Virus record (IMG/VR): IMGVR_UViG_3300045988_154997
Coordinates: 37,871 to 101,870 of that record
Strand: one strand, 5' to 3'
DNA length: 64,000 nucleotides
Origin: a virus
Taxonomy: Duplodnaviria > Heunggongvirae > Uroviricota > Caudoviricetes
A model generated the notes under the pieces. It was not told where the DNA came from. It did not search any database and saw nothing but the letters and a program-made list of their open reading frames with translations. The position numbers were made by a program, and so were the translations under genes. Below, in pieces: positions 15,045 to 61,236 of the stretch. Each line of letters opens with the position of its first letter. Position 1 is the stretch's first letter.

Positions 15045-15075
15045 AAACAAATTGTTTTCTAGTATTAGTTAATTA
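15045..15075. promoter_or_regulatory. conserved promoter/operator element (AACAAATTGTTTTCT...TTAATTAG)
   Basis: One of 8 copies of AACAAnTTGTTTTCT, here ~20 nt upstream of the helicase start. Confidence 0.45.
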
Positions 15076-15818
15076 GATAGGGGATCAATAAACCGCCGTG
15101 CTTCTTCCAGTTCTTCTGGAAAGTGGGCGGAAATAAGGCGCTCTGGAACGATTTCCATTAGCCAGATAGCAGAGAAAATTGCGCGTATGCGCTTGCTGCG
15201 GGGGATGATGCGCAAACGCTCCAGAATCCACTCAAAATAGCTTTCCTGAATCGGGTTGAACTGCATGTCTCCCATATGCTTAAAGCTAACCAGAGAGTCA
15301 TCCAGACGGGTTGTTGCGCGTCTGGATAATTTCTCTTCGAATATCTCAATCAGTTCTGGCTGCCATAAATGCTGTGGGCGCGGCAACTTGTCCCACAGAC
15401 GCCGTGCAGCTGCGGAAAGAACCGTGGAGATAAAGTAGTCGTATGAACAGCAATAGCGATCAGCAAACTGGCGTGCTTTCCATAGCGACGTTTTATTGGC
15501 AGTCGACAACTCCTGATAAGGCAGGCGTTTTAACCCGGTGGTGAACGGAGCTGTTTCAAAGTGTTCGCGACCGTGCGTCAGCATGATATTTGAGTACTGA
15601 CGTTTGTATGCCTCCGTAAAAAGACAGGTGGCCATGAGAGGATGCATGTCGCGGTAATCAAACCACTTCGTCTCGAAGAGTTCAGCCTCGTCATTGCAGC
15701 GCGACAAACCAATGTTTTCAGCGACCCACTTGTCCATAACAGCGGTATTCCACTCTGTCATGAAGTCGTACTGGTCGTTGTCAATGGTATCAAAAAAGAT
15801 TTGGCTCATGTGGCTCAC
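15069..15818 (-). CDS. hypothetical protein
   Basis: 249 aa ORF directly upstream of the helicase; no motif recognised. Confidence 0.45.
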   Translation of the reverse strand: MSHMSQIFFDTIDNDQYDFMTEWNTAVMDKWVAENIGLSRCNDEAELFETKWFDYRDMHPLMATCLFTEAYKRQYSNIMLTHGREHFETAPFTTGLKRLPYQELSTANKTSLWKARQFADRYCCSYDYFISTVLSAAARRLWDKLPRPQHLWQPELIEIFEEKLSRRATTRLDDSLVSFKHMGDMQFNPIQESYFEWILERLRIIPRSKRIRAIFSAIWLMEIVPERLISAHFPEELEEARRFIDPLSN

Positions 15819-15819
15819 C

Positions 15820-15840
15820 TGATAGGTAGTTACTTACTTA
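15820..15840. promoter_or_regulatory. dispersed motif copy (reverse orientation: TAAGTAAGTAACTACCTATCA)
   Basis: Lies ~10 nt upstream of the start codon of the 15069..15818 gene on the minus strand. Confidence 0.35.
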
Positions 15841-15927
15841 TTGCAATGAGCGGATGATAGCGACTGGTGGCAGTTTTTGGAAGTGGAAACGGAAGGGAAT
15901 GTGTCTGGGAAGTTGGCATAGAAAAAG

Positions 15928-15985
15928 ACCTGCTTCCGTATAAATAATAATAAGTAACTTAGTATTTATATACAGAAGCAGGTTC
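15928..15985. repeat. ~58-bp palindromic element (CCTGCTTCCGTATA...AT-rich core...TATACAGAAGCAGG)
   Basis: 14-bp GC-containing arms around an AT-rich core with TAAGTAACTTAGTA; a paralogous element sits at 49989-50045. Confidence 0.5.
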
Positions 15986-16006
15986 CAAATTCAACCAGCA
16001 GGATGC

Positions 16007-17203
16007 TTAAACATCTTTTAGAAAGCCTGGAAACCAATGTTTCATGATATACCTAAAATGTGCTCTAGTTGGTTCAAAAACCTGTCTAGATACCAGCGCT
16101 CCATCAGGATGATTCTGAACAGACTGTTCTTTTTCCATATCGTAAAAATTATGAGTTATCTCTGGGGGGAAGAAAATATTTCTGTCCAGTGGCACTGTCG
16201 CAAAAGGATTGTAGTAAATATGAAGGCCGTCAAAGTGCGTCTCTTCATGAGCAGTGGAATGGCAAACTACAATATCCGCACCAGTGACTTCGTTATTTAA
16301 AAAATGCCGATATGTAGTGATGAAATGATCAGGACCTATCCTTTGTGTGTGCTTTCCCTCGTTTTTCATCCCTTCATTGGCGATGAAATCATTCACATCA
16401 ATGGCTCGATATCGTGTTGACCTTACATATCTACCGATACCGCTTTGAACCACGGCTTTTCCAAAAGTGCCGGTGGTGGAGAAAATAACCGCACTTATTT
16501 CTTTATATGAGTCGTTAGTAAATATACCTAATGGAATTTCAACGTCTTCATTCTTTTTGATTGAGGTAACTTTAGTTTGGCTGCCAGTCACCAAATTTCT
16601 GGTGGTAGGTTCCTCAATGCCAAACAACACTCGATTGATGATTGTGTTATTTTGAGACAATGATAAATCGGAGTCAAAGGGTGCAAGCGCCAGAACAAAC
16701 GGCTTATTAACTACATGAGACATCGTAGAGTACGGGAATTTTTTGCCATTAACTCCTGTAAAAAGATCATGTTTGTCTTTGATTTTTCCGATTAATTTTA
16801 GCGTTGATTGATGTTTGAATTTTGATTCGCTAAAAAGAGCACCTGCAGGTGGATTATGTGGCCGATCTGATATCACAGCTTCGACGTTAAACTGGTAGCC
16901 TGACGGTGTAGTAACACAGAAATCGGGACTGTCTTTTGTGTAGTCGACAGAATAATCGAGACGAATAAACATTTCGTTCAGATACAATTCCCATAAGGCG
17001 GAATTGAAGGTTGTCTGAAACTCTTTAACGAATTTAGTCTGCTCACCGCTACGCTCCAGTAACCCACGCCCCCACGACTGTATCACTTCTCTTACTGGAG
17101 CATATGTATTATCTTGATAAATCTGTTTAAAAGATTCGTGCAGCTTGTTTTTTGCTATTTTGGTTGAGAACAAATCCATTATTAGCCTCACTAACCAGTT
17201 CAA
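16007..17203 (-). CDS. hypothetical protein (398 aa), partner of the DUF2971-like gene
   Basis: Long ORF, moderately AT-rich, no motif recognised; immediately downstream of the DUF2971-like gene on the same strand. Confidence 0.45.
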   Translation of the reverse strand: MNWLVRLIMDLFSTKIAKNKLHESFKQIYQDNTYAPVREVIQSWGRGLLERSGEQTKFVKEFQTTFNSALWELYLNEMFIRLDYSVDYTKDSPDFCVTTPSGYQFNVEAVISDRPHNPPAGALFSESKFKHQSTLKLIGKIKDKHDLFTGVNGKKFPYSTMSHVVNKPFVLALAPFDSDLSLSQNNTIINRVLFGIEEPTTRNLVTGSQTKVTSIKKNEDVEIPLGIFTNDSYKEISAVIFSTTGTFGKAVVQSGIGRYVRSTRYRAIDVNDFIANEGMKNEGKHTQRIGPDHFITTYRHFLNNEVTGADIVVCHSTAHEETHFDGLHIYYNPFATVPLDRNIFFPPEITHNFYDMEKEQSVQNHPDGALVSRQVFEPTRAHFRYIMKHWFPGFLKDV

Positions 17204-17245
17204 TAAGAAAAGCGCCCAACATAATCATTTGAGGAAAGTCTGGAG

Positions 17246-17965
17246 CTACTTCAGCTTTTCTTTGACAAGAAGATAACCATCATCAGGTGTACTCATTTTG
17301 TAAACCTCGATGCTCGTGTCTAGCTGTGTCCGGGCATATTCTTCTACTTCAGGAGAAACGTTATACCCAAGAATGATCTCTCTAATATATTTCTTATCAA
17401 ATGCCTGAGCGCCTATTTTTTTAGTAATAACCCTTTGTTCTTCCTCATATTTCCAGCATTCGTGCTTGTAGAAAAAGAGCTTATCAAAAAGTACCTTAAA
17501 CTCATCTGTAACTTCATCGAACACGGGAACAGAAGGTATATATTTCACATTATCAAAGCTGTGATACCCCTCAATAGAGGTAACAAAATCATCATCAAAG
17601 CCTATGCAGAAACCTTTATGCGACACTGAGTAATGTGACCACATCAAGATGTTATCTTCGTTTGGTGACAAGCACACCACACCAAAAGCCCCTAATGATT
17701 CTTTCCGCAAATCCACAGCCAACGATTTTGCAGCTTCAGGAGCTACAGCATCCCAGTCTTCAAAGGAAAAATCCTTACATCCATTGTCTTCAAAGTGTTT
17801 CCGGCGCTCCACTTCTGTACCTCCCATCGTTATCGAAACTTTGAACTCTGATGGGTCGTTGAATGAAGAAGGTGCGCTAGCAGAGATAGTGCCGTCCTCT
17901 ACAAACCGTTTGAGGTTACGTAACACTTTTTGCGAATCTTCACTTCCAATATATTTGTAGAGCAT
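17246..17965 (-). CDS. DUF2971-like protein
   Basis: First ATG gives MLYKYIGSED...SSFNDPSEF...NILMWSHYSVSHKGFCIGFD; the LYKY / FNDP / MWSHY pattern matches my recollection of DUF2971. Track start 18004 is TTG. Confidence 0.45.
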   Translation of the reverse strand: MLYKYIGSEDSQKVLRNLKRFVEDGTISASAPSSFNDPSEFKVSITMGGTEVERRKHFEDNGCKDFSFEDWDAVAPEAAKSLAVDLRKESLGAFGVVCLSPNEDNILMWSHYSVSHKGFCIGFDDDFVTSIEGYHSFDNVKYIPSVPVFDEVTDEFKVLFDKLFFYKHECWKYEEEQRVITKKIGAQAFDKKYIREIILGYNVSPEVEEYARTQLDTSIEVYKMSTPDDGYLLVKEKLK

Positions 17966-18009: not shown

Positions 18010-18369
18010 TTAACCTTTCTTCATCAACTCGCGTTTGATTTCATCGGTACGCATCGTGACGTCGGCAGCAGTGATCGCCTCGTTAAGTTTCACGATATCC
18101 TCGATTTCCTGCGGCGACTTCTCTGCCAGATGGAAAATAGCAGCACGAATCACATCAGAGCGGGTGAATTTCTCGAAGCGAGGGATGAACTTCATCATCT
18201 CCAGCAGTTCGAAGTATTCGTCTTCCAGTGACATTGTGCGGCTTTTAATTTTCTCTTTGCCACGAGTCGGGCGTCCCTGTGGTCTGACTGGTTGGCGCAA
18301 AGGAGTTGTGTTCTTAGCCGGTGCATCAGGCTCTTTGCGCTTTGCTAGGTCACCCATTTTCATGGACAT
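18010..18369 (-). CDS. small partition partner protein (ParG/ParB-like, putative)
   Basis: 119 aa, basic N-terminus then helical C-terminus; directly downstream of ParA with a 1-nt overlap, as in type Ib partition operons. Confidence 0.45.
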   Translation of the reverse strand: MSMKMGDLAKRKEPDAPAKNTTPLRQPVRPQGRPTRGKEKIKSRTMSLEDEYFELLEMMKFIPRFEKFTRSDVIRAAIFHLAEKSPQEIEDIVKLNEAITAADVTMRTDEIKRELMKKG

Positions 18370-19037: not shown

Positions 19038-19073
19038 TGGAGAGTTCCCTTTGCGTATATAATTATCGTCTGA

Positions 19074-19100
19074 AACAACTTGTTTTCTTATATGTGATAT
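19074..19100. promoter_or_regulatory. conserved promoter/operator element (AACAACTTGTTTTCTTATATGTGATAT)
   Basis: Copy of the AACAAnTTGTTTTCT element ~40 nt upstream of parA. Confidence 0.45.
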
Positions 19101-19172: not shown

Positions 19173-19197
19173 AAAAACCCGCCGTAGCGGGTTTAGG
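19173..19197. terminator. rho-independent terminator (AACCCGC-CGTA-GCGGGTT), minus strand
   Basis: Hairpin followed by a T-run on the minus strand, 3 nt after the stop of the 19200..19976 gene. Confidence 0.6.
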
Positions 19198-47990: not shown

Positions 47991-49240
47991 GAACCACCAA
48001 GAATAACACGGTTTTTGACTGGATACCTACGATGTACTGGATAGCCCAATGCGTCTGCACTATGCTCAATGCCACCTGTCTTATCCATATCTCGTGTTCC
48101 AGGCTTGTAGATGACTTTTTCCAGTGAATCAATCAAATGCTTGCACTTCGGATCGATATACAGCCGGATATCTCCAGATGCGGACATCAGCATTCGGTTA
48201 ACAGCATTAACACGATCCGCAATTGGCGGGTGCTTTTTCGAATAATCGACACGTAAGAATCCCTTCTCTTTGAATATGTCTACGTCAGACTCCCCACGAG
48301 CATGTTGGCGATAAGCACCTGCCGGATCTGGAAATACCGTTACCTGTGATTTCCAGCGCCAGAAGCGTCTCTCAAGCTCATCACAAACTTCTGCCGTGTT
48401 AGAGGAAAAGAGCACCAATTCATCAATTGCCCATAGCTCACCATTTGGCTGAGGTTGCAAAATTACTGAAGACATCGGGTCAATGTTGAAGTCCTGCCCT
48501 ACCCATATAGGCAACCGAGGGTTGAACTGAAGCGGTTTTACATGCACGTTACGATCGAACGGGTAGTAAACGCGCCCGGACATGTTCTCAAAGCTGGCCA
48601 GGTACTCCTGAGCGAACGATTTGGGGTCCATATCGTTCTTAGCAGCTTCAATTTCCGCCGTAGGTACAAACGGAGAATCGGCAGTTACAAACTGCCAGCT
48701 CTTCCACTGTCCCTTTCTTTGCAGCTCTACGTTCTGGCCTATAGTCCACAGTTTGTGAAATTCCGAGAAGCCTTTTGGCGTACCAATGATCAGTGCACCG
48801 CCGCGTGTCGATGAAAGAGTAGGTCGTAACACCTTGTACCAGGTGTCAGCCTTCATATCCTGAAATTCATCAAGCACTACAAAATGCAACGCTACGCCGC
48901 GCAGAGTGTCAGGCTTATCAGCACCTTTGAGGGCGATCTCCGAACCGTTCTTCAACACGATTGTCATCGTGGTGTCGTTCTTTTTCCTAACCCACTTACG
49001 AGGCAGAACTTCCTGTAGATCGTCCCATAAAATCTGGCGAGCCATCTGGTAAGTAGGAGCGACATACCAGACCCTTTGCTTTTTTTCCTTTGCCGCCGCA
49101 CGAATAATAGTGGAGATCGACAACCGGGATTTTCCCCAGCGTCGACCAGCACAAACAACTTTAAATCGATGCGGAGACTGGAAGACTTTCATCTGTCCAG
49201 AATGCAGTTGCACAAGACTGAGCGAGGACGGGATTGCCAT
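47984..49240 (-). CDS. terminase large subunit
   Basis: Walker A VVCAGRRWGKS, Walker B VVLDEF; C-terminal nuclease-sized domain. Confidence 0.85.
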   Translation of the reverse strand: MAIPSSLSLVQLHSGQMKVFQSPHRFKVVCAGRRWGKSRLSISTIIRAAAKEKKQRVWYVAPTYQMARQILWDDLQEVLPRKWVRKKNDTTMTIVLKNGSEIALKGADKPDTLRGVALHFVVLDEFQDMKADTWYKVLRPTLSSTRGGALIIGTPKGFSEFHKLWTIGQNVELQRKGQWKSWQFVTADSPFVPTAEIEAAKNDMDPKSFAQEYLASFENMSGRVYYPFDRNVHVKPLQFNPRLPIWVGQDFNIDPMSSVILQPQPNGELWAIDELVLFSSNTAEVCDELERRFWRWKSQVTVFPDPAGAYRQHARGESDVDIFKEKGFLRVDYSKKHPPIADRVNAVNRMLMSASGDIRLYIDPKCKHLIDSLEKVIYKPGTRDMDKTGGIEHSADALGYPVHRRYPVKNRVILGGSR

Positions 49241-49872
49241 TATTCGTCCTCCCCTTCACTTCCATCATCTGTCGCATCAAATTCGCTTAGAGCTTCTTCT
49301 TCCAACGTCTCAAGCAATTCGTCATCGATGATTTCAGGCTCGTCGTCTTCCTGACGTAATTTCGCCACCTGGGAAGGCGTAAGCTCACCAAATACCAGGT
49401 TCGGAATTTCTTCCTCGTCATTTTCCGCATGATCCATGCCCAATGCTTTGGACGAAACTTCAAAGCATTTTGCAAGGGTATTACTGGCTCTCTGTAAGCT
49501 CTTGAGAGAATCCTCAATCGCCCCTAAAGGCTTACCCTCACGTTTGGCCGTAGTGACTTCGACCATCACCATCTGCCCCAACGCATACGCCCAGCCGTCA
49601 TAACGTGTACGACGTTCTTCTATCTTTTCCGCACGGGCTTTAGCGCGAAGCTCTGCGTCAGATTTAAGAGACTCACGAACCATCTTCCCAACAGAGTCCG
49701 CGCCTTTCTCTAATCCTCGCTTTTTGAAATGTCTGGAGAGTGTTTCACGACGAATGCCGTACTCTTCCTCCAGCTTTGAGAGTGTATATTCGCCTGACGT
49801 CCATTTGGCTTCAGCTTCGGCCCACTCCGCTGGTGTCAGGCGAGTTTTTACCTCGTCTTTTTCGACCGTCAT
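49240..49872 (-). CDS. terminase small subunit (putative)
   Basis: 210 aa, N-terminal HTH-like YTLSKLEEEYGIRRETLSRHFKKRG, acidic C-terminus; start of the large subunit overlaps its stop. Confidence 0.6.
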   Translation of the reverse strand: MTVEKDEVKTRLTPAEWAEAEAKWTSGEYTLSKLEEEYGIRRETLSRHFKKRGLEKGADSVGKMVRESLKSDAELRAKARAEKIEERRTRYDGWAYALGQMVMVEVTTAKREGKPLGAIEDSLKSLQRASNTLAKCFEVSSKALGMDHAENDEEEIPNLVFGELTPSQVAKLRQEDDEPEIIDDELLETLEEEALSEFDATDDGSEGEDE

Positions 49873-49913
49873 AGATCCCTCTAAAACACACAGAGCGCGT
49901 CCATGCGCTCTAA

Positions 49914-49969
49914 AACAACTTGTTTACTGCATCTGCTAACCAACTTGTTTTCTGGGGTGTTTAATTAGG
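49914..49969. promoter_or_regulatory. two tandem copies of the conserved promoter/operator element
   Basis: AACAACTTGTTT (49914-49925) and CAACTTGTTTTCTGGGGTGTTTAATTAGG (49941-49969), upstream of the terminase small subunit. Confidence 0.45.
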
Positions 49970-50067: not shown

Positions 50068-50334
50068 TTACATCACCAGTAACTTCGCTTTGGCTCGACC
50101 TAAAGTGGTTAACCCAAGAGTTCGGCGGTGATAGCGATTGTCACTGCGTTGGCGCGTATGCCCTTTCTCCACCAGCCCCTTTTTTATCAGAGCGCGAATT
50201 GAGAACTGGATACTTTGCTTGGTTGTCTTGTACGGCAAAACTTCAAGCAATTCGTCCAGGTCAAGTAGATGACCTCGCTCATAACCGAGATTGAGCGTTT
50301 TGATGATGTCCTTTTGTTTATCGGTTAACGTCAT
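50068..50334 (-). CDS. small winged-helix DNA-binding protein (putative)
   Basis: 88 aa, basic C-terminus; last gene of the ParB-ParB-ATPase-GNAT operon. Confidence 0.4.
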   Translation of the reverse strand: MTLTDKQKDIIKTLNLGYERGHLLDLDELLEVLPYKTTKQSIQFSIRALIKKGLVEKGHTRQRSDNRYHRRTLGLTTLGRAKAKLLVM

Positions 50335-53323: not shown

Positions 53324-54883
53324 ATGACTGTTCGGATTGTATCTAACGCAGTTAATGCGCTTATTTCTGGCGCAGATGACAAGGTAAAGCAAATGGTGCA
53401 ACAGATGTTGAGCTACGAAGTCGAGACTGGCGACTGGAAGGGCACAAGCACGATGTTCAACTGGAGTAAAAACTCGTTCCCTGCTGGCTTTGCCAAGCCT
53501 GTAGCGGCGAACTTGAACAAGGCGGGCATCAAATGTGTTCATATCCGCAAAGACAAAGCCCCGGCGCTTGGTAAACCAAATCCTGCGGTTAACCCATTCC
53601 CATACAATCCTGATTATGCGTATCAGGATCAGACTGTGGAAACACTGGTTCGAGAGGGAATGATGATTGCGCAGATCGCTACTGGTGGCGGGAAATCTAA
53701 CGTTGCCTGCAAAGCAGCTGCACGTATCGGTCGAATGACATTATTTTTAACAACCCGCTCTGTTCTGATGTTTCAAATGGCCGAAAACTTCCAGAGATCC
53801 ATCGACTACCGCGCCGAAAATGGCGAACCGTGGTTAAAAGACCAAAAGGTTGGAGTCATTGGCTCGGGTGAGTTCCAGGTATCACGACATATCAACGTCG
53901 CTACAGTTCAAACTCTTGCAAGTTTCCTCGAAGAACCACCACGCGATGCAACACCAGATAAGAAAAGCTACCACCTCAAACGTCGGGAGTTGGTGAAACG
54001 CTTCCTTTCAAGTGTCTCTCTTCTTATTCTGGAAGAGGCGCATGAGTCTTCAGGCTCAAATTTCTATGACATCGCCAGATTATGTGTGAACGCAGACTAT
54101 CGTCTGGCGCTTACAGCCACGCCGTTCATGAAGGATTCGACGGAAGCCAACATGCGCCTGATGGCGGTGGCCGGGCGAATTGAAATTAAAGTCACAGAAA
54201 AGTACCTGATTGATCGAGGCATTCTGGCAAAGCCGTACTTCCTTTATCATAAAGTTGCCTACAAGCCAGACGAGGCCAGAATCAAGGCCGAACTTGCCAA
54301 CAAACACCTCAATTTTAGAGTTGGTATGAGCACCGCCTACCAAAAGGCTTATCAGTTGGGGATCGTGTATAATTTGGGACGTAACGAGGCCATTGTTCGC
54401 GAAGCATTGCTCTATAAGCAACATTCTCTCAATTGTATGACTCTGGTTCGTCTTAAACGCCACGGGCAAATCCTGATGGAAATGATGAAAGAGTCCGGCC
54501 TTAGAGTTGACTTCATCTATGGGGAATCTAACCAGGCGACAAGGCAAGCAAAGCTGAACAGTTTAGCGTCTGGAGAAATAGATGTTTTAATAGGCTCGAC
54601 TATTCTGGATGTCGGTGTTGATGTGCCAAGCGTTGGTGCGGTCATTCTTGCTGGTGGTGGGAAAGCAGAAGTTGAAATGAGGCAGCGTGTCGGTCGTGGC
54701 TTACGAGCCAAAAAAAATCAGGCAAACGTGTGTTTTATCACTGATTTCATTGACATTAGCAACAAATACCTGTTGTCTCACTCTTATGAGCGAAAACACA
54801 TCATCGACACCACACCTGGCTTTGCAGAAGGTGTATTGCCTATTGATGGAGCATTCGATTTTGGAGTTCTGAAACGAGATTAG
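53324..54883 (+). CDS. superfamily-2 DEAD/DEAH-box helicase
   Basis: Motif I IATGGGKSNVA, motif II LILEEAHES, motif III LTATPF, motif VI QRVGRGLR. Confidence 0.8.
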   Translation: MTVRIVSNAVNALISGADDKVKQMVQQMLSYEVETGDWKGTSTMFNWSKNSFPAGFAKPVAANLNKAGIKCVHIRKDKAPALGKPNPAVNPFPYNPDYAYQDQTVETLVREGMMIAQIATGGGKSNVACKAAARIGRMTLFLTTRSVLMFQMAENFQRSIDYRAENGEPWLKDQKVGVIGSGEFQVSRHINVATVQTLASFLEEPPRDATPDKKSYHLKRRELVKRFLSSVSLLILEEAHESSGSNFYDIARLCVNADYRLALTATPFMKDSTEANMRLMAVAGRIEIKVTEKYLIDRGILAKPYFLYHKVAYKPDEARIKAELANKHLNFRVGMSTAYQKAYQLGIVYNLGRNEAIVREALLYKQHSLNCMTLVRLKRHGQILMEMMKESGLRVDFIYGESNQATRQAKLNSLASGEIDVLIGSTILDVGVDVPSVGAVILAGGGKAEVEMRQRVGRGLRAKKNQANVCFITDFIDISNKYLLSHSYERKHIIDTTPGFAEGVLPIDGAFDFGVLKRD

Positions 54884-54885
54884 TT

Positions 54886-55164
54886 ATGAGCGAAAAGAAA
54901 ACAACTTATTGTCAGGTAGCATTGTCTGATAAGGCCAATGACAAACTTGGAAAGTTTCAAGTGAAACTAAAAGAAAAAAATATCAAAATGTCTAAGGCTG
55001 AAGTCATAAATACCATTCTGGAACAATTGACAATGGCCGACTTTGACAAGGTTATATCTTCTGTCGGGGCTTCCGCTAAGACTCGTGAGAAAATCATGCG
55101 TATCTATGAGAACTCTAATATGACAAAGGAAGATCTCGAAACGCTATTAAGCAGATTAAAATAA
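54886..55164 (+). CDS. hypothetical protein
   Basis: 92 aa ORF 2 nt after the helicase stop. Confidence 0.45.
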   Translation: MSEKKTTYCQVALSDKANDKLGKFQVKLKEKNIKMSKAEVINTILEQLTMADFDKVISSVGASAKTREKIMRIYENSNMTKEDLETLLSRLK

Positions 55165-55190
55165 TCACGCTATCAATTAGGGAGACAAAG

Positions 55191-55655
55191 ATGAAGTCTC
55201 CCATACTGTTCACTTTCTGTTCTAAAACTATCATGAAATACTCGCTTCTCCCTCTACTAACGTTACCAGTGTTGATGCTTACCGCGTGCCAATCACGCCC
55301 AATATCAATCCATGACGCCAAACCAGCACCGCAGGCCAAAGTGTTCAAGTATCAAAGCGCAGCGCCAGCTACGTTGGTGGTAATGAGAGACACAGGTTTT
55401 GTAGGAGCTGGATGTGATGCTTCCATTTTCATCAACGGCGAAACTGTCGCAAAACTGGCTACAGGCGAAAAAGCGACTTTCCATTTAAATGCCGGAGAAT
55501 TAATTGTGGGTGCATCTCTTGAAGGTGCAGGTTTATGTGCTCTAAACCCCGCTCGTCAAGAGCGAGAAACGACTCTGAAGAATGGAGACACAAAAGCGTT
55601 CAGGGTGTTCACCAGCAATTCTGGTGACATCGACATTCTGCCAACAACTCTGTGA
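55191..55655 (+). CDS. lipoprotein (hypothetical)
   Basis: Signal peptide with lipobox LLTLPVLMLTAC. Confidence 0.5.
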   Translation: MKSPILFTFCSKTIMKYSLLPLLTLPVLMLTACQSRPISIHDAKPAPQAKVFKYQSAAPATLVVMRDTGFVGAGCDASIFINGETVAKLATGEKATFHLNAGELIVGASLEGAGLCALNPARQERETTLKNGDTKAFRVFTSNSGDIDILPTTL

Positions 55656-55659
55656 TGAC

Positions 55660-56184
55660 ATGACAACCAAAGATATTACCTACGGTATCCAAGCTGAACT
55701 CTGGCCGCGAGATTACACTAACGTTGAAAAACTACTGATGTTCTGGCGCAGAGAACAAATTCCTGTAAGGGTCACTCTCGAAGATGGCCAGGCGTTTTGC
55801 ATGTACGTTTATGGCCTCATGCCATCTCGTAACAAAGTTGACCTTTGCCCAGCCCCTTTTGACAAAGAAAATCGTATAAGGCTCCCACTTGAACGCATTA
55901 GTACAATTGAATCAGGTGTGGTTGACAGTATCGCTCACGATTTCAAAGGTCGACTAACAGTTCACCCTGATTATGTCGATAATCGGCCATCACGCCGCGA
56001 TTTTTTTGCAATTTGCAACCAAGCCTACAAAGCAAACAAATCTATAAGGGTGTACATGGCGGATGGCCGTGAAATTGAGGGGGTGTCAGCAGGCGCAGAT
56101 GCTTGTCAGGTTACACTACGTGTCGAGAACGGTAGAAAAATAGTTGTTTTGTTCGATTGGGTTGAACGAATTTTGCCTTTTTGA
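55660..56184 (+). CDS. hypothetical protein
   Basis: Track ORF 55582..56184; in-frame ATG at 55660 (MTTKD) lies just after the upstream stop. Confidence 0.45.
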   Translation: MTTKDITYGIQAELWPRDYTNVEKLLMFWRREQIPVRVTLEDGQAFCMYVYGLMPSRNKVDLCPAPFDKENRIRLPLERISTIESGVVDSIAHDFKGRLTVHPDYVDNRPSRRDFFAICNQAYKANKSIRVYMADGREIEGVSAGADACQVTLRVENGRKIVVLFDWVERILPF

Positions 56185-56187
56185 GTT

Positions 56188-56496
56188 ATGAAATCGATAT
56201 TGTTACCACCATTATTTTTACTTTGCTCAGTTGCGGCAAATGCAATGGACTATAAGCCTGTCATTCAGTCGCTGATGAATGACGTGTGCTCAACGTCTCA
56301 GAATGTATCAGTTTGCATGTATCAATTTTCGGCAGCCGTAAAAGCAGGAAAAGCGATAGGTGAGAATGTGGAACTGTGTAAGAAAGTGGCAAATGAAGAA
56401 CGGGCAATGTTGGATTGCGAATCTAGCGAGTCATCGGCACAGTTCGTTGATGCGCTATTTGACACCAATCGTAAGGCTGTAGATTCTGTTCAATAA
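56188..56496 (+). CDS. secreted hypothetical protein
   Basis: N-terminal signal peptide MKSILLPPLFLLCSVAANA; several Cys. Confidence 0.45.
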   Translation: MKSILLPPLFLLCSVAANAMDYKPVIQSLMNDVCSTSQNVSVCMYQFSAAVKAGKAIGENVELCKKVANEERAMLDCESSESSAQFVDALFDTNRKAVDSVQ

Positions 56497-56508
56497 ATCT
56501 ATAAGGTT

Positions 56509-56540
56509 AATAACCGGCTAAGTCCGGTTATTATTTTTCA
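56509..56540 (+). terminator. rho-independent terminator (AATAACCGG-CTAAGT-CCGGTTATT + T-run)
   Basis: Hairpin followed by ATTTTT, 13 nt after the stop at 56496. Confidence 0.6.
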
Positions 56541-56779
56541 CATCACTTCTTTATATCTACAAATCAAATAACCTAAATATATATAAGGTCTAAAGCCGCA
56601 ATCGATTATTTATTTAGGGAACACCTTCGACGATCTCGCTTTTATTTCTAGGACTTTCATCCCTGCAAAAAATTTAAAAAAAACACTTGCAATCTTTTTT
56701 CGCATATCGATAATTGAACTCGTCGAAAGCGAAGACGCTAACGACAATAAATTTTAAATTTACATAAGGAAAAATTATC

Positions 56780-57430
56780 ATGGCTAACATTATCATTTCT
56801 AAAAAATCCATCATTGAAGCTGCTTCCATTGTATCCGATGAACTGCGCGAAAAAGCAGATCTGGCAACTCAAACATATAACGAACATTATAAAAATGGTA
56901 CGCACACTAAAGCAGACAAAGCAAATATGCAAGCTGCGACCACTAAACTTGCTTACTTCATCAACAACGTCGTAAACGCAGTAGAAGACGAAAAATTATG
57001 CTCTGTTTTCTACTATGCGATTAAAGCAAGCAAACAAGCGCCAGAAGTATTTTTCCGTGATGCAATGACTAATAGTTATTCTCTGGAAAAACTGGTTTAT
57101 CTGGTTAAATCAATTAAATCTGGTAAATGCGTTTATTCCATCGCTGATATGTCTGGATCTCGTGTATTCGCTTTAATCGATATGATTAACGACGAGATCG
57201 ACACGTTCACTAATGGCGCTGTTTTCGATTTAATGAATGAAGCTAAAAAAGCGTGTGAAATTAAATTGGACGCTGGTTATACTCAAGCCAACCAGTTGAT
57301 CAATCTTTGCGAACGTCTTGGACTTGTTGAAAAAGTCAAAGGAGCTGGGAGCGCGAAAGCTGGTACTCAGCAATATCGCTTCATTAAAAATGATTTCTAC
57401 AATTATTTAGCTGATGCTTTCAAAGCGTAA
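56780..57430 (+). CDS. hypothetical protein (AT-rich cassette gene 1)
   Basis: 216 aa ORF with AAGGAAAAA upstream; visibly AT-rich. Confidence 0.5.
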   Translation: MANIIISKKSIIEAASIVSDELREKADLATQTYNEHYKNGTHTKADKANMQAATTKLAYFINNVVNAVEDEKLCSVFYYAIKASKQAPEVFFRDAMTNSYSLEKLVYLVKSIKSGKCVYSIADMSGSRVFALIDMINDEIDTFTNGAVFDLMNEAKKACEIKLDAGYTQANQLINLCERLGLVEKVKGAGSAKAGTQQYRFIKNDFYNYLADAFKA

Positions 57431-57442
57431 TTAATGGAATCA

Positions 57443-57463
57443 AGCGCCCACTATGGGCGCTTT
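57443..57463 (+). terminator. hairpin AGCGCCCA-CTAT-GGGCGCT (weak T-run), duplicate of the 57940-57960 hairpin
   Basis: Identical 21-mer at 57940-57960; sits between gene 1 and gene 2 of the cassette. Confidence 0.4.
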
Positions 57464-57478
57464 AAAGGAGCTTTGAAA

Positions 57479-57682
57479 ATGGTCAGCTATGACAAGATCC
57501 GCGCGGAATATCGCGCAAAGTATCGCGCTTATAAACTAGAATTAATCGATGATTTAATCGCGCAACGCGACCAATTAAATTTTACGTTTTCTGATTTGCT
57601 TAACAGCAAGCGAGATTGCAAGCGCAAACGTGAATACTTACGTTTAAGCGCATTAATCGGAAAACTTCAAAATTCTATTTAA
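57479..57682 (+). CDS. hypothetical protein (AT-rich cassette gene 2)
   Basis: ATG at 57479 with AAGGAG 9 nt upstream; the track start 57434 would place the hairpin inside the ORF. Confidence 0.4.
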   Translation: MVSYDKIRAEYRAKYRAYKLELIDDLIAQRDQLNFTFSDLLNSKRDCKRKREYLRLSALIGKLQNSI

Positions 57683-57702
57683 TTTTTTTAAGGAGCTTAA
57701 TC

Positions 57703-57933
57703 ATGTTTGTTCTTATCGCTGGCGTTAACGTCCATAACGAATATTATGTTAATCGCATCGCTGGGATCGCTGGTTACGCTGGGCGCGCAGTCGAGCTTAT
57801 AGATGAAACGACGCGCAAAATTGACTTATTGAGCGACCAGGAGCGAAAAAAAGCAGACGTGAACGACGCTGATATATTTTTAATGTTAAAAGCGTTTGTA
57901 GAAATGGGATTTAAAATCAGTTTACACAAATAA
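57703..57933 (+). CDS. hypothetical protein (AT-rich cassette gene 3)
   Basis: 76 aa ORF with AAGGAG upstream. Confidence 0.4.
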   Translation: MFVLIAGVNVHNEYYVNRIAGIAGYAGRAVELIDETTRKIDLLSDQERKKADVNDADIFLMLKAFVEMGFKISLHK

Positions 57934-58541: not shown

Positions 58542-58550
58542 TCTTCTCAG

Positions 58551-59033
58551 TTACACGCCATCAAGGATGTGGATGCGGTTGCTTGCGTATACATTCAGCA
58601 TAAAGTTAGCGCAAAACAGTTTCCATGTATCAACGCCAGCGGTATACGTAATGTTTTTGCATTTAATTGCATTGTTGGCGATCCGCATCCCCTGCGATAC
58701 TGCTTCATCGTCGGAAAATTTGAACGACGATTGAGTTTTAATCCAGACAGAAATCTGCGTAGCGAACTCAATCAGCTTGGACTGGCAGAATCGCCCGGAG
58801 CGCACCGGAAAGACGAACGTTCCGAATCCAGAATTTACCACATACGCTTTCTCAAATACCCGCGAGTAACGACGATTGCCAATGATGTCGCGTGCAATAA
58901 TGCATTTTTCTTGTGCTGACAGTTCTACCGTCTCATTGTCGCGCCATGCACCAAGTACTCGTTTTTCAATGTCAGAGAACGTTACAGCGATATTGCCATG
59001 TGCGGGTGCGTTTACAGTAGCGATAAAATTCAT
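58551..59033 (-). CDS. hypothetical protein
   Basis: 160 aa ORF flanked by a promoter-like element upstream and a terminator hairpin downstream. Confidence 0.5.
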   Translation of the reverse strand: MNFIATVNAPAHGNIAVTFSDIEKRVLGAWRDNETVELSAQEKCIIARDIIGNRRYSRVFEKAYVVNSGFGTFVFPVRSGRFCQSKLIEFATQISVWIKTQSSFKFSDDEAVSQGMRIANNAIKCKNITYTAGVDTWKLFCANFMLNVYASNRIHILDGV

Positions 59034-59044
59034 GATTAATTCCT

Positions 59045-59077
59045 TATCGTAAATAACAAATTGTTTTCTTGTTGGTG
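59045..59077. promoter_or_regulatory. conserved promoter/operator element (AACAAATTGTTTTCTTGTTGGTGTTAATTATCG)
   Basis: Best-preserved copy. On the minus strand reads TTAACA-N17-TGTTAT with palindrome AACAATTTGTT in the spacer, then AAGGA and ATG. Confidence 0.5.
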
Positions 59078-59119
59078 TTAATTATCGTTGTACGAATAAG
59101 GCGTCAAAGTGGAAAGTTG

Positions 59120-59208: not shown

Positions 59209-59228
59209 AAGGCCATCAATGCTGATGG

Positions 59229-59381
59229 CCTTAATAATTATCGACCGATTACGCTAAGGATCTTTTCCTCAACTGATTTGTTGTTGCGACTAAACTGCCT
59301 TGCGTATCTGATGACAGAAGAGGCGTTTTGCTTTCTGACCATCTCGGCTCTTTCCTTCAGGCGTTTCTTGAAATCGCCCAT
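59229..59381 (-). CDS. small basic protein (50 aa; below the ORF-track cutoff)
   Basis: Hand-translated MGDFKKRLKERAEMVRKQNASSVIRYARQFSRNNKS...; GGTGG upstream of the ATG; hairpin 59201-59224 downstream. Confidence 0.3.
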
Positions 59382-59383
59382 AT

Positions 59384-59758
59384 TTACCACCAGGCGCAGA
59401 AGGTCAGTCTGTTATTGTGAAAGTCGTGGTTCCTGATCAGGTCTTCCACAAGTTTTTTCAGCTTATCCACGTCATGCCAGTAACCTTCGTCGTACTCCTG
59501 ACTGCCGAAGAAAAAACCTTCCCGAGTAGGCAAGTACTCTTCGCAATTGCTTTCGTTTATGTGCATCAAATGAGCTTTCAGAAGACAAATGTCATTCATC
59601 GTTAATTCTAAAAGCTCACAATTTTCGACTTCACCTACGTTGCGCTCCATCCACCCAACGAGCGCATTGAACTTACGGAAGTAAGCAACCTGCTTTCTGG
59701 ATGCCTCGTTATTCAGATCGTTTTTAGGCTGTGTCTCGATATAGATATCAAGTCCCAT
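59384..59758 (-). CDS. hypothetical protein
   Basis: Start placed at MGLDIYIE (59758) with AAGGA 7 nt upstream; the track start 59800 is GTG. Confidence 0.45.
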   Translation of the reverse strand: MGLDIYIETQPKNDLNNEASRKQVAYFRKFNALVGWMERNVGEVENCELLELTMNDICLLKAHLMHINESNCEEYLPTREGFFFGSQEYDEGYWHDVDKLKKLVEDLIRNHDFHNNRLTFCAWW

Positions 59759-59805
59759 GATGGTTTCCTTATTAAGTTGCTTCAGTGAAATCATTTTCAC
59801 AAATC

Positions 59806-59826
59806 AGATAAGGCAGAAAACAAATT
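59806..59826. promoter_or_regulatory. conserved promoter/operator element (GAAAACAAATTGTTATCGGGC)
   Basis: Copy of the AACAAnTTGTT element upstream of the 59384..59758 gene. Confidence 0.4.
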
Positions 59827-59832
59827 GTTATC

Positions 59833-59857
59833 GGGCATAATAAAATGGCGCGGTTTA
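59833..59857. terminator. rho-independent terminator (AAATGGCGCG-GTTTA-CGCGCCATTT), minus strand
   Basis: Perfect hairpin with T-rich tail on the minus strand, downstream of the stop at 59876. Confidence 0.6.
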
Positions 59858-59875
59858 CGCGCCATTTAAAGAGGA

Positions 59876-60271
59876 TTAAGCGAATACGCTTTCAGGGATT
59901 AAGGTGTCGGCAGGAATGCCAGAGGTAATGCGCAGACCGTACTGGCCAATCCAGGTGGTGCTGGTGTTCAGGCTGGAGGCGAATACGGTGTTAACCATAT
60001 TCATCATGGTTTCAAACACCTCTTCATCAACCTGGCGGAAGTAGTTCTCGATTTTCAGCAGCAGCGGGTCAGTTGCATCGAGAATGGACTGGTATTGAGT
60101 CGCGTACTCGCCGCCGGAGGCGTCACCTTTACGCACGATCGTACTGGCCTGGACTTCGGCACCAGTTTCGGTGTTGTACGTAACAACGGTAATTTTTGCC
60201 ACATTCTTACCTTCGGCGGTTTCAGAGGCATAGTAAACATCAACTGTCAGTTTTTCGCGTTTAACGGTCAT
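59876..60271 (-). CDS. hypothetical protein
   Basis: 131 aa ORF between a terminator and an upstream palindromic motif. Confidence 0.5.
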   Translation of the reverse strand: MTVKREKLTVDVYYASETAEGKNVAKITVVTYNTETGAEVQASTIVRKGDASGGEYATQYQSILDATDPLLLKIENYFRQVDEEVFETMMNMVNTVFASSLNTSTTWIGQYGLRITSGIPADTLIPESVFA

Positions 60272-60314
60272 TTCACTCTCCGTAGTGTATTGGTTATTTT
60301 TCTATTCTATGATC

Positions 60315-60330
60315 GTAAGTATGTACTTAC
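60315..60330. promoter_or_regulatory. dispersed motif copy GTAAGTA-tg-TACTTAC
   Basis: Near-perfect palindrome ~45 nt upstream of the 59876..60271 gene start. Confidence 0.4.
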
Positions 60331-60340
60331 AATACAAAAA

Positions 60341-60363
60341 AGCCCCGTAAGGATGGCGGGGCT
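60341..60363. terminator. rho-independent terminator (AGCCCCG-TAAGGATGG-CGGGGCT), minus strand
   Basis: Hairpin followed by TTTTTT on the minus strand, downstream of the stop at 60398. Confidence 0.6.
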
Positions 60364-60397
60364 GTCGTACGGTCGACTAATTACCACTTGCACATTA

Positions 60398-60708
60398 TCA
60401 GGCTATTGCCATCACTGATGCTCTCTGAATCTCTTGCTGGGCCACGCGGTTAACTTCCATCAAAGCCAGTTCGAGCTGATGTTCCGGCCACATTCTTTGA
60501 AATGCCACCCAGCCTTTTCCACGCTGGCGACGAACATTCATTACATAACGAGTAAAGGTGTTTTTATCGAAAGACACCGCTGTTTCACGGAACAGACGAA
60601 TAGAGGTCCCATTGGCAACGATGTCCAGCAAAGTTAATTGAGCAACCAGTGCAGGCTTCTCTTTTCTCTTCTGGTCTTTGTCCAGACCAAGAACCAATGA
60701 TTTTTTCA
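60398..60708 (-). CDS. hypothetical protein
   Basis: Start placed at MKKSLVLG with GGAG 6 nt upstream; the track start 60739 would overlap the promoter element. Confidence 0.45.
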
Positions 60709-60721
60709 TCACAACTCCGTA

Positions 60722-60750
60722 AACAACTTGTTTTCTCAATGGCGTAAATA
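60722..60750. promoter_or_regulatory. conserved promoter/operator element (AACAACTTGTTTTCTCAATGGCGTAAATAAT)
   Basis: Copy of the AACAAnTTGTT element directly upstream of the 60398..60708 gene. Confidence 0.45.
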
Positions 60751-60862
60751 ATACCAGTAAGAAAACGGCTACAAAGCATATTGATCAGGTGCATGAGCTA
60801 TATGCAGGTTCTTCCCTGCGGCTATAGAGAAATTAAGCCAGCAATGCTGGCTTTGGTTGGGG

Positions 60863-61213
60863 TTACTCGAATACTTCAAGAAACTCCTGAACGTCCCAAT
60901 GCTGGACGAGGTGAAGATAGACCTTAGAAATCACGTCATTTTCGCTATCGCATGTGAAGTAGTACTTCTGGCTGCGGTTGTATGTGTCCACACAAAATTC
61001 GCTCATATCCATAAAGTCAGCATCTTCACCCATGTCGCAAATCATCAAAGCAGGTGCGTCATCACGAGTCATCAGCTCAAGCACCCACCGCGAATTGATC
61101 AGAGTGGAAGACCAACCTTCTAACTCATAAAACTGATCAAACTCTTTTTGAGTTAATTTCTTGATTTGGTTGATGTCGATATTTGCAAACATAAAGCAAT
61201 CCTTAAACAACAT
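60863..61213 (-). CDS. hypothetical protein
   Basis: 116 aa acidic ORF; start possibly at the internal MFANIDINQ (61192). Confidence 0.4.
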   Translation of the reverse strand: MLFKDCFMFANIDINQIKKLTQKEFDQFYELEGWSSTLINSRWVLELMTRDDAPALMICDMGEDADFMDMSEFCVDTYNRSQKYYFTCDSENDVISKVYLHLVQHWDVQEFLEVFE

Positions 61214-61236
61214 GTTTTCTTGATGGTGTTATTATC
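61206..61236. promoter_or_regulatory. conserved promoter/operator element (AACAACATGTTTTCTTGATGGTGTTATTATCG)
   Basis: Copy of the element at the 5' end of the 60863..61213 gene. Confidence 0.45.

What the first reader, a model, noticed from the sequence alone, without database searches (positions are those of the whole stretch)
15045..61236. Conserved ~30-bp promoter/operator element repeated 8 times upstream of leftward genes
The sequence AACAA-n-TTGTTTTCT, often followed by TGGTGTTAATTA, recurs at 15045, 19074, 49914, 49941, 59045, 59806, 60722 and 61206, always just upstream of minus-strand gene starts (helicase, parA, terminase small subunit and the small-gene block). On the transcribed strand it reads roughly TTAACA-N17-TGTTTA with a palindrome (AACAAnTTGTT) in the spacer. 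That looks like a sigma-70-type promoter overlapped by a dimeric repressor operator, suggesting one regulator coordinates replication, partition and packaging genes.
Basis: seen in the sequence. Interest (0 to 1): 0.65.

Follow-up and report, generated by a model that had tools for sequence, protein, structure and literature searches.

The report
Repeated operator motif in phage-plasmid
A short, nearly palindromic DNA word (AGAAAACAAnTTGTTT) sits just ahead of about 16 genes of an SSU5-type phage-plasmid and is kept in all close relatives, so it marks one co-regulated gene set, but the protein that reads it and whether it is read as DNA or as RNA are not yet known.

Summary
The motif is about 15 times more frequent than chance, almost entirely intergenic, and lies upstream of leftward genes. 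These include the DnaB helicase, parA, terS and a block of small single-gene cassettes.

The window is an SSU5/pHCM2-type phage-plasmid, nearly identical to E. coli pYLPM7a. The whole plasmid has 16 sites, SSU5 about 22 and Cyrano about 17, at matching places.

Its proposed -10 has an invariant G at hexamer position 2. It would also start transcripts beyond the Shine-Dalgarno (ribosome-binding) sequence at four sites. Sigma-70-like -35/-10 pairs lie upstream instead, placing the palindrome at roughly +1 to +20 of the transcript.

Genes behind the motif are mostly silent in published RNA-seq of a Cyrano lysogen.

Best reading (about 0.42): a dispersed double-stranded DNA operator for a phage-encoded repressor, working like the phage P1 C1 operators or the mycobacteriophage L5 stoperators. 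The binder is unidentified.

Main rival (about 0.33) and most novel reading: the motif is an mRNA-leader operator for the FljA-family protein that every relative encodes. I find that protein to be a tandem Sm/Hfq-like fold. This link is suggestive only.

The motif regulon was not found described in the searchable literature.

The parts
15043..15060 (-). Motif site (forward polarity) in the 43-bp gap before the DnaB-like helicase start (15025). It reads AGAAAACAATTTGTTTAA on the minus strand.
   Evidence: The orthologous site is kept in SSU5 (34391), Cyrano (32086) and K. pneumoniae CP027615.
19071..19088 (-). Motif site before the parA start (19037); a terminator-like hairpin lies upstream at 19175-19194.
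   Evidence: Kept in SSU5 (30455), Cyrano (29265) and CP027615.
49911..49928 (-). Proximal site of the pair in front of the terS-like gene (ATG 49872).
   Evidence: The pair is kept in SSU5 (62/87), Cyrano (63/88), pMT1 (28504/28529) and L204 (4128/4153).
49936..49953 (-). Distal site of the terS pair, 25 bp from the proximal one.
49891..49912 (-). Terminator-like hairpin between the double site and the terS start codon.
59052..59069 (-). Motif site before the small gene 58551-59033.
59081..59107 (-). Best example of the upstream sigma-70-like promoter: TTGACG (59102-59107), a 15-nt spacer, then GATAAT (59081-59086). This places the palindrome centre (59060) at about +14.
   Evidence: score 9.7 against a background 95th percentile of 5.0; sequence
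59815..59832 (+). Inverted site (the extended arm AGAAAACAA is on the + strand). It lies directly after the terminator hairpin of gene 59876-60271 and upstream of gene 59384-59758.
   Evidence: Orthologous inverted sites occur in Cyrano (97196), SSU5 (93668), L204 (15518), L206 (19648) and pMT1 (37961).
60719..60736 (-). Motif site 12 nt before the ATG of gene 60398-60709; the SD sequence GGAG follows the palindrome directly.
61203..61220 (-). Motif site 13 nt before the ATG of gene 60863-61192; the SD sequence AAGGA starts 1 nt after the palindrome.
54896..54913 (+). Weaker site with + polarity just inside the start of ORF 54886-55164. This is the first gene after the helicase, in the same operon as the FljA-like gene.
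   Evidence: (PWM 19.9). Kept in Cyrano (103480) but not detected in SSU5.
56134..56151 (+). Weak site with + polarity at the 3' end of the FljA-like gene, about 40 nt before ORF 56200-56496.
   Evidence: PWM 17.9
55660..56184 (+). Candidate trans factor: an FljA-family protein (Pfam PF03614) with a predicted tandem Sm/Hfq-like fold.
54886..55164 (+). Candidate trans factor: a conserved 92-aa protein (phrog_1466). Its Cyrano homologue CYRAN_117 is expressed 12-fold above background in a lysogen. Fold unresolved.
18010..18363 (-). Candidate trans factor: a ParG/omega-like centromere-binding protein (CBP) encoded downstream of ParA. It has a basic disordered tail followed by a domain that looks like a ribbon-helix-helix (RHH).
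   Evidence: weak RHH hits only; expression 89 in the Cyrano lysogen
50068..50334 (-). Candidate trans factor: an 88-aa protein resembling a winged helix-turn-helix (wHTH), directly upstream of the terS double site.
   Evidence: weak Lrs14/Sta1/LexA-N hits; at background in the lysogen

Best explanation
The element is a cis-regulatory operator placed at the very start of at least 16 transcription units of an SSU5-type phage-plasmid. Each unit has a weak-to-moderate sigma-70-type promoter, with TTGnnn at about -47 and (G)ATAAT-like hexamers ending 11-21 bp before the dyad centre. The promoter is followed by the 16-19-bp element AGAAAACAA-n-TTGTTT(aa), then a Shine-Dalgarno sequence and the start codon.

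I think the element most likely works as double-stranded DNA. A phage-encoded repressor would bind the dyad across the start site and early transcribed region (about +1 to +20). This would keep the replication, nucleotide-metabolism, packaging and small early gene units off, and parA low, while the element lives as a plasmid prophage. Losing or inactivating that one protein would switch all units on together.

Shown: the motif, its enrichment, its position and polarity relative to genes, its family-wide conservation, and the low RNA level of downstream genes in a lysogen.

Inferred: the transcription start sites, that the element is read as DNA, that the effect is negative, and the identity of the binder. 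The 92-aa protein at 54886-55164 is the best-expressed conserved candidate. The wHTH-like 50068-50334 protein and the ParG-like protein are alternatives.
For: Enrichment and intergenic bias.

There are 16 intergenic sites in the whole plasmid, all before leftward genes. The same sites occur at orthologous places in SSU5, Cyrano, pMT1, a Klebsiella plasmid and a Nissabacter-type contig.

The core has perfect dyad symmetry within +/-6 bp. Single-arm changes are never compensated (AACATGTTGTT, AATAATTTGTT, TTGGT). This fits protein-DNA reading rather than RNA pairing.

Sigma-70-like -35/-10 pairs sit upstream of the dyad at about half of the sites, and the positions at dnaB and nrdB are conserved between the E. 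coli plasmid and SSU5.

Terminator hairpins precede several sites, so these are separate units.

Inverted sites occur 51 bp upstream of forward sites, over the -35 region, as auxiliary operators would.

In RNA-seq of a Cyrano lysogen (PMC9928086, S1 Table) the background median is 9.8. Ten of 13 motif-preceded genes read 5.7-12.9. The strongly expressed lysogenic genes carry no motif.

From my own knowledge, P1 C1 operators and L5 stoperators are precedents for many dispersed operators in a temperate phage.
Against: No start sites are mapped.

The left flank (A-9, G-8, A-7) is nearly invariant but is not mirrored on the right. About 80% of sites point the same way as transcription. A symmetric homodimer does not explain this polarity.

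No conserved protein with a confident DNA-binding fold has been tied to the motif. The HTH regulator next to the integrase and the S24 peptidase are absent from SSU5, which keeps the regulon. The ParG-like protein is absent from pMT1, which keeps seven sites. The model of the 92-aa protein is of low confidence, and sequence profiles give no DNA-binding family.

The parA operon carries a perfect site yet is 5-9-fold above background in the lysogen.

Most of the prophage is silent in that data set anyway, so the silence of motif genes is weak evidence.
Confidence: 0.42

Rival explanations
1. The motif is an mRNA-leader operator for the phage FljA-family protein. It is transcribed as the 5' leader (AGAAAACAAnUUGUUU, 12-41 nt before the start codon). 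The tandem Sm/Hfq-like protein encoded at 55660-56184 binds it as single-stranded RNA, blocking ribosome loading and lowering mRNA stability, as FljA is reported to do on fliC mRNA.
For: The protein is a full-length PF03614 member (E = 2.5e-84).

The gene sits in a conserved helicase / small ORF / FljA operon in every relative examined. It is on 825 PLSDB plasmids, including 341 from Klebsiella (non-flagellate, from my own knowledge) and 62 from Yersinia. Repression of fliC therefore cannot be its conserved role, and it needs a phage-internal target.

Canonical fljB-linked FljA shares all conserved sequence blocks with the phage subfamily.

The motif lies on the sense strand next to the SD sequence, also inside operons (dnaB, nrdB, cobT), and is polar.

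The Salmonella and Citrobacter fliC leader carries CAAGTTGT, matching 8 of 10 core positions, 24 nt before the ATG. That spacing is like the phage sites.

The distant Moellerella relative has only a remote, shorter homologue and only A-rich half-sites, with no palindrome.
Against: The fliC match is not significant with the full matrix (P about 0.09). The E. coli fliC leader lacks the core.

I could not read the published FljA binding site.

The exact dyad with an unconstrained centre is the classic signature of a DNA operator.

The inverted sites lie right after terminators and upstream of the putative -10, so they may not be transcribed on the sense strand.

At nrdB the predicted start falls inside the element.

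Motif genes are low at the RNA level in lysogens.

The Moellerella comparison does not discriminate, because all the other candidates have also diverged there.
Confidence: 0.33
2. The sites are dispersed centromere/operator sites of the type Ib partition system. The small ParG/omega-like protein encoded after ParA (18010-18363) would bind the dyads. It would use them for partition and as a global repressor, as KorB of RK2, omega of pSM19035 or SopB of N15 do.
For: A perfect site sits just upstream of parA, and no other repeat array is near the par operon.

The protein has a basic disordered tail followed by a beta-alpha-alpha-like segment, with weak RHH hits.

It is well expressed in the Cyrano lysogen (89 against a background of 9.8).

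In a Klebsiella relative the protein is only 48% identical overall, yet the putative DNA-reading strand KSRTMS and the helix TRSDVIRAAI are unchanged, and the motif is kept.

A tight dyad conserved within +/-6 bp suits a ribbon-helix-helix reader (from my own knowledge).
Against: Y. pestis pMT1 has lost this par system (it has P1-type ParAB instead) and still keeps seven sites. These could, however, be recent relics.

Moellerella keeps the conserved strand but has no palindromes.

The RHH assignment falls below every curated threshold.

Type Ib centromeres are normally arrays of repeats, not single dyads (from my own knowledge).
Confidence: 0.1
3. The whole 45-bp block is a promoter of a special class. 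It would be read by host RNA polymerase only with a phage activator or sigma-like factor, or exactly as the first reader drew it (-35 TTAACA, 17 bp, -10 TGTTTA with the operator in the spacer).
For: T at -20 is invariant, and A at -18 and C at -15 are conserved, upstream of the dyad. The -35 PWM has a local peak at -21.

The block is polar and precedes genes.

Motif genes are silent without induction.
Against: The proposed -10 lacks the essential A at position 2 and T at position 6. It passes background at 2 of 33 sites.

Its start sites would fall past the SD at four sites.

The distance from the best upstream -10 to the dyad varies from 11 to 28 bp. That fits an operator but not an activator box, which needs fixed spacing.

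No RNA polymerase or sigma gene is annotated in the plasmid.
Confidence: 0.08

Closest known systems
Phage P1 C1 repressor and its dispersed operators (P1 is also a plasmid prophage)
   Same: One repressor with many operators scattered over a roughly 100-kb plasmid-prophage genome. The operators overlap promoters of replication and other lytic functions. (From my own knowledge.)
   Different: The P1 operator is an asymmetric 17-mer (ATTGCTCTAATAAATTT), not this dyad. No C1 homologue is annotated here. Binding is untested.
Mycobacteriophage L5 gp71 'stoperators'
   Same: Two dozen or more short sites lie in small intergenic gaps, including inside operons, and mostly point the same way as transcription. 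(From my own knowledge.)
   Different: Stoperators are 13-bp asymmetric sites bound by a monomeric HTH repressor that blocks elongation. Here the core is a dyad, about 20% of sites are inverted, and the hosts and proteins are unrelated.
FljA-fliC translational control in Salmonella phase variation
   Same: The element encodes a full-length FljA-family protein. The motif sits in leaders a few nucleotides before the SD sequence, as the CAAGTTGT stretch does in the fliC leader.
   Different: FljA has one known target whereas here there would be 16-22. Identity to canonical FljA is only 37-39%. The sequence match to the fliC leader is not significant. Many hosts have no flagellin.
KorB of RK2, omega of pSM19035 and SopB of N15 (partition proteins that double as global regulators)
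   Same: A palindromic site lies upstream of parA, with further copies at promoters of replication and other genes around the replicon.
   Different: The sites persist in pMT1, which lacks this partition system. There are no repeat arrays, and no ParB-HTH protein of KorB type is linked to the site.

Membership tests
   Position +3 is G in 13 of 14 sites. Position +7 is A in 8, T in 5 and C in 1 of 14. There are no consensus-scan hits. The PWM passes the background 95th percentile at 2 of 33 sites.
   At window 60722 and 61206, and plasmid record 80865 and 92697, the ATG is 12-14 nt after the palindrome and the SD sequence starts 1-8 nt after it.
Sigma-70 promoter upstream of the dyad (alternative register) | -35 and -10 hexamers with a 15-19-bp spacer that score above background | tested here: inconclusive
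   About 17 of 33 sites reach the background 95th percentile. The dnaB and nrdB hexamers are conserved between the E. coli plasmid and SSU5. The strict consensus scan finds none. No 5'-end data exist.
Dispersed repressor operators (P1 C1 type) | Many copies of one site at promoters across the genome | tested here: met
   16 sites in pYLPM7a, about 22 in SSU5 and about 17 in Cyrano, at orthologous intergenic places.
Dispersed repressor operators (P1 C1 type) | The P1 operator sequence and a C1-family repressor | tested here: not met
   The motif is AGAAAACAAnTTGTTT, not the P1 17-mer (P1 sequence from my own knowledge). No C1-like gene appears in the annotations. A direct homology search for C1 was not run.
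L5-type stoperators | An asymmetric site in a single orientation relative to transcription, in intergenic gaps inside operons | tested here: inconclusive
   The extended arm points with transcription at about 80% of sites, and sites lie in the dnaB, nrdB and cobT gaps. However, the core is a dyad and about 20% of sites are inverted.
FljA-type translational operator | An FljA-family (PF03614) protein is encoded by the same element | tested here: met
   E = 2.5e-84 over the full length. It is conserved in all relatives.
FljA-type translational operator | The site lies in the 5' untranslated leader close to the ribosome-binding site | tested here: inconclusive
   The palindrome ends 12-41 nt before the start codons. 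Being inside the transcript depends on predicted, unmapped start sites.
FljA-type translational operator | Sequence resemblance to the validated fliC leader target | tested here: inconclusive
   The Salmonella and Citrobacter leader has AtCAAgTTGTa (8 of 10 core positions), centred 24 nt from the ATG. The full PWM gives P of about 0.09. The E. coli leader lacks it.
FljA-type translational operator | The protein binds the RNA and represses translation | not testable with these tools
   This needs RNA gel-shift or CLIP assays and translational fusions.
Partition-protein global operator (KorB, omega, N15 SopB type) | A site upstream of parA plus a cognate centromere-binding protein | tested here: inconclusive
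   The site at 19074 lies before parA, and a ParG-like protein is encoded at 18010-18363. RHH hits fall below thresholds. The sites persist in pMT1 without this system.
Known RNA families (Rfam 15) | A covariance-model match at gathering score | tested here: not met
   Only three tRNA hits in the window and nothing at the motif sites.

The most novel reading that the evidence does not exclude
The FljA family, known only as the Salmonella phase-1 flagellin repressor, is primarily a phage-plasmid global post-transcriptional regulator. It would be a tandem Sm/Hfq-like protein that reads the leader AGAAAACAAnUUGUUU on 16-22 phage mRNAs covering replication, partition, packaging and early cassettes. 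The inverted copies next to terminators could possibly give short decoy or antisense RNAs. On this reading, Salmonella phase variation borrowed the protein and a look-alike site in the fliC leader from such an element.
Probability: 0.3. Interest if true: 0.85.

Novelty: new variant of a known kind. Interest (0 to 1): 0.6.

Why it matters
SSU5/pHCM2/pMT1-type phage-plasmids are very common in E. coli, Klebsiella, Salmonella, Enterobacter and Yersinia. More than 800 plasmid records carry the family's FljA-like gene. Several papers report that these elements carry antibiotic-resistance genes.

Full-text searches found no description of their lysis-lysogeny or copy-number circuitry at the level of operators.

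A single cis word that marks the whole early, replication and packaging gene set gives a direct handle on that circuit. One could pull down its binder, mutate it, or use it as a sensor of induction.

If the binder is the FljA-like tandem Sm protein, the finding has wider reach. It would give the FljA family a fold, a physiological role outside flagellar phase variation, and an evolutionary origin. It would also add a sequence-specific Hfq-like translational repressor to phage biology.

Tried and rejected
1. An exact-pattern scan of viral contigs gave mostly single chance hits plus multi-hit contigs of 100-112 kb of SSU5 size. It did not help with mechanism.

2. The HTH_19 regulator beside the integrase (window 242-628; called the putative repressor in Cyrano) and the S24 peptidase were rejected as binders. 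SSU5 lacks both but keeps the regulon.

3. The 92-aa protein at 54886-55164 looked like a ribbon-helix-helix (RHH) by eye. AlphaFold gave pLDDT 53, and profile searches against PDB and Pfam gave no RHH support. This is left open.

4. I could not read the primary FljA papers for the mapped binding site. Secondary papers give no sequence.

5. The fliC leader resemblance scored with the full matrix is not significant, so I downgraded it from key evidence to a lead.

6. I first read the Moellerella plasmid as lacking FljA (tblastn). A profile search then found a remote, shorter homologue. The clean 'no FljA, no motif' argument was therefore withdrawn.

7. P0074 (an E. coli chromosomal hit) turned out to be a degraded integrated SSU5-like element, not a flagellin-linked FljA.

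8. pBSSB1 (AM419040) is not in the collections.

9. An RNA hairpin made by the dyad itself was rejected. A 1-nt spacer cannot form a loop, and arm changes are not compensated.

10. A MerR-type arrangement (operator in a long spacer, with a -10 further downstream) was rejected. No hexamer with T at position 6 lies at +4 to +11, and there is no room before the SD sequence.

Full report
WHAT THE WINDOW IS

Megablast shows the window is an SSU5/pHCM2-type phage-plasmid. Its first 22 kb match the E. coli plasmid pYLPM7a (NZ_CP073997.1) at 100%, and over all 64 kb it differs from record positions 16851-80850 at 13 positions. I fetched the whole 112,588-bp record with its annotation.

Most genes run leftward. 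They include the tail and head genes, terL, a terS-like gene, a type Ib parA with a small partner, dnaB, primase and ligase. One rightward operon (53324-57933) starts with a DEAD-box helicase.

THE OBSERVATION

AACAANTTGTTTTCT with up to two mismatches occurs 16 times, against 1.1 expected. The 11-bp core with up to one mismatch occurs 11 times, against 2.9 in shuffles. Nine of those 11 lie in the 14% of the window that is intergenic (P = 9e-7). A 19-column weight matrix (PWM) at 19 bits or more is expected 0.15 times per shuffled plasmid and is found 18 times.

All eight listed sites exist, and a few coordinates are off by 1-13 nt. They precede dnaB, parA, the terS-like gene (a pair 25 bp apart) and four small genes.

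In the whole plasmid there are 16 intergenic sites. The extra ones lie before cobT, nrdB, a TerB-family gene and other small genes.

ANATOMY

Sites were aligned on the transcribed strand and numbered from the dyad centre. The conserved block is tAATwA.aC...(a/t)..AGAAAACAA n TTGTTT(a/t)(a).
- Positions -6 to +6 form a perfect dyad with a free centre.
- A-9, G-8 and A-7 are nearly invariant but are not mirrored at +7 to +9.
- T-20 is invariant.
- Arm changes (AACATGTTGTT, AATAATTTGTT, TTGGT) are never compensated, so the dyad is not an RNA stem. A 1-nt spacer could not loop anyway.

The palindrome ends 12-41 nt before the start codon. At four sites the Shine-Dalgarno (SD) sequence follows it directly.

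About one site in five is inverted. Inverted sites lie either 51 bp upstream of a forward site or alone, right after the terminator hairpin of the preceding gene. Terminator-like hairpins bracket the small genes, which therefore look like single-gene cassettes.

Between the terS double site and the terS ATG there is a terminator-like hairpin. In RNA the two copies could also pair with each other.

WHERE THE PROMOTER IS

The consensus scan finds nothing there. A start site after it would skip the SD sequence at four sites.

I profiled a sigma-70 PWM across 34 sites from the plasmid and SSU5. The -10 score peaks for hexamers starting at -25 (GATAAT class), and the -35 score has a local peak at -47 (TTG).
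- Site by site, a -10 starting at -28 to -22 reaches the background 95th percentile at about 17 of 33 sites.
- The dnaB and nrdB sites instead have good pairs closer in. These are TTGATC-16-AATACT or TAGTAT starting at -15 or -16, and TTGTAA or TTGAGC-16-TAAGAT starting at -11. Both are conserved between the E. coli plasmid and SSU5.

The dyad therefore sits at roughly +1 to +20 of the predicted transcripts, at a variable distance from the -10. That is what an operator does, not an activator box. No start site has been mapped, so this is inference.

CONSERVATION

- SSU5 has about 22 sites and Cyrano about 17, at orthologous positions.
- A Nissabacter-type contig, whose FljA-like protein is only 57% identical, keeps the same word before terS and the small genes.
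- Y. pestis pMT1 keeps seven sites.
- A Klebsiella plasmid with diverged partition genes keeps the parA and dnaB sites.
- A distant relative from Moellerella (41% GC) has no palindromes. It has only four intergenic half-sites AAGAAAA(A)CAA behind an ATAATTA-type module.

EXPRESSION

In published RNA-seq of the Cyrano lysogen (PMC9928086, S1 Table; background median 9.8), most motif-preceded genes are at background:
- terS 7.1, cobT 7.8, nrdB 12.9, and small genes 5.7-12.8.

The exceptions are:
- the parA operon (50-89);
- dnaB (21, against 6.2 for the gene before it);
- one small gene (25.5).

The strongly expressed lysogenic genes carry no motif. This fits repression, but most of the prophage is silent in that sample.

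WHO READS IT

The HTH regulator beside the integrase and the S24 peptidase are absent from SSU5, so they are not the readers. Four small proteins are conserved in SSU5, Cyrano and this plasmid.

1. A 92-aa protein (54886-55164). Its Cyrano homologue is 12-fold above background in the lysogen. Its fold is unresolved.

2. An 88-aa protein resembling a winged helix-turn-helix (wHTH), just upstream of the terS pair. The family hits are weak, and it is at background in the lysogen.

3. The ParG/omega-like centromere-binding protein (CBP) encoded after ParA. It is expressed at 89 in the lysogen, and its putative DNA-reading strand is unchanged in a 48%-identical homologue. However, it is missing from pMT1, which keeps seven sites.

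4. A full-length FljA-family protein (55660-56184; PF03614, E = 2.5e-84).

THE FljA LEAD

FljA is cited as a translational repressor that acts on fliC mRNA.

The gene is a hallmark of the family. It is on 825 plasmid records, including 341 from Klebsiella and 62 from Yersinia. Flagellin repression cannot be its conserved job in those hosts.

Canonical fljB-linked FljA is 37-39% identical to the phage subfamily and shares all its conserved blocks.

The Salmonella and Citrobacter fliC leader contains CAAGTTGT, centred 24 nt from the ATG. That spacing is like the phage sites. But the match to the full matrix is not significant (P about 0.09), and the E. coli leader lacks it.

The Moellerella relative has only a remote, shorter homologue. 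The other candidates have diverged there too, so this comparison does not discriminate.

VERDICT

The motif is a real, conserved, regulon-defining element.

I rank a double-stranded DNA operator for an unidentified phage repressor first, at about 0.42. The grounds are the dyad, the position over the start region, the inverted auxiliary copies, the silence in lysogens, and the P1 and L5 precedents.

The FljA-RNA operator comes second, at about 0.33. It offers a named binder with the right biochemistry and fold, and it explains the polarity and the position next to the SD sequence.

The partition-protein operator is at about 0.10.

Full-text searches found no description of this motif, or of an Sm-like fold for FljA.

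Noticed in passing
window 55660-56184 (+): The FljA-family protein (Pfam PF03614) is predicted to be two tandem Sm/Hfq-like domains behind a conserved N-terminal DIT(Y/W)G..AE.WPRDY motif, with no HTH. It is universal in SSU5-like plasmids, including those of non-flagellate Klebsiella and Yersinia. Literature searches found no mention of this fold for FljA.
   Followed up: yes
window 49866-49965 (-): The terS leader holds a terminator-like hairpin (49891-49912) between the double motif and the ATG. In RNA the two motif copies can pair with each other (MFE -27.8 kcal/mol, z = -2.7). This suggests attenuation or antitermination control of the late operon.
   Followed up: partly
window 61213-62757: A 1.5-kb stretch has no annotated gene. 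It holds a weak motif of + polarity (62398-62415) next to a conserved 'aacgcaacggga' string that recurs in SSU5 (90746), Cyrano (94611) and L204 (18922). It also holds terminator-like hairpins at 61749-61776. It may be an RNA gene or an origin-related region.
   Followed up: no
window 59785-59800: A second palindrome, GTGAAA-TCAT-TTTCAC (resembling a CRP half-site), lies just downstream in the transcription sense of the inverted motif site. The flanking 'ttttcacaaat' is conserved in SSU5 and Cyrano.
   Followed up: no
window 18010-18363 (-): The gene after ParA is annotated as a RelE/ParE toxin in Cyrano (CYRAN_29). It looks instead like a ParG/omega-type centromere-binding protein, with a basic disordered tail followed by a strand-helix-helix segment. 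No repeat array that could be a classical centromere lies near the par operon.
   Followed up: partly
window 5890-6447 (-): A cluster of four tRNA genes (Ser-TGA, Thr-TGT, Tyr-GTA, Asn-GTT). The plasmid gene table does not list RNA genes.
   Followed up: no
window 54896-54913 (+): A motif copy (PWM 19.9; chance expectation 0.15 per plasmid at 19 bits or more) lies inside the first codons of ORF 54886-55164. This is the first gene after the helicase, in the operon that also encodes the FljA-like protein, so it may be an autoregulatory site. It is kept in Cyrano but not detected in SSU5.
   Followed up: partly
L213-L215 (Moellerella wisconsensis pW18-2-b, NZ_CP093251.1), e.g. record 15464, 51698, 53075, 54739: A distant SSU5-like plasmid keeps only the A-rich half (AAGAAAA(A)CAA) behind an ATAATTA-type module, before parA and three small genes. 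It carries a shorter, remote FljA-like protein (49018-49443). This hints that the two halves of the motif can evolve separately.
   Followed up: partly
L208-L209 (Y. pestis CO92 pMT1): The plague plasmid pMT1 still carries the helicase / small ORF / FljA-like operon and seven motif sites. It has replaced the type Ib partition genes with P1-type ParAB.
   Followed up: partly
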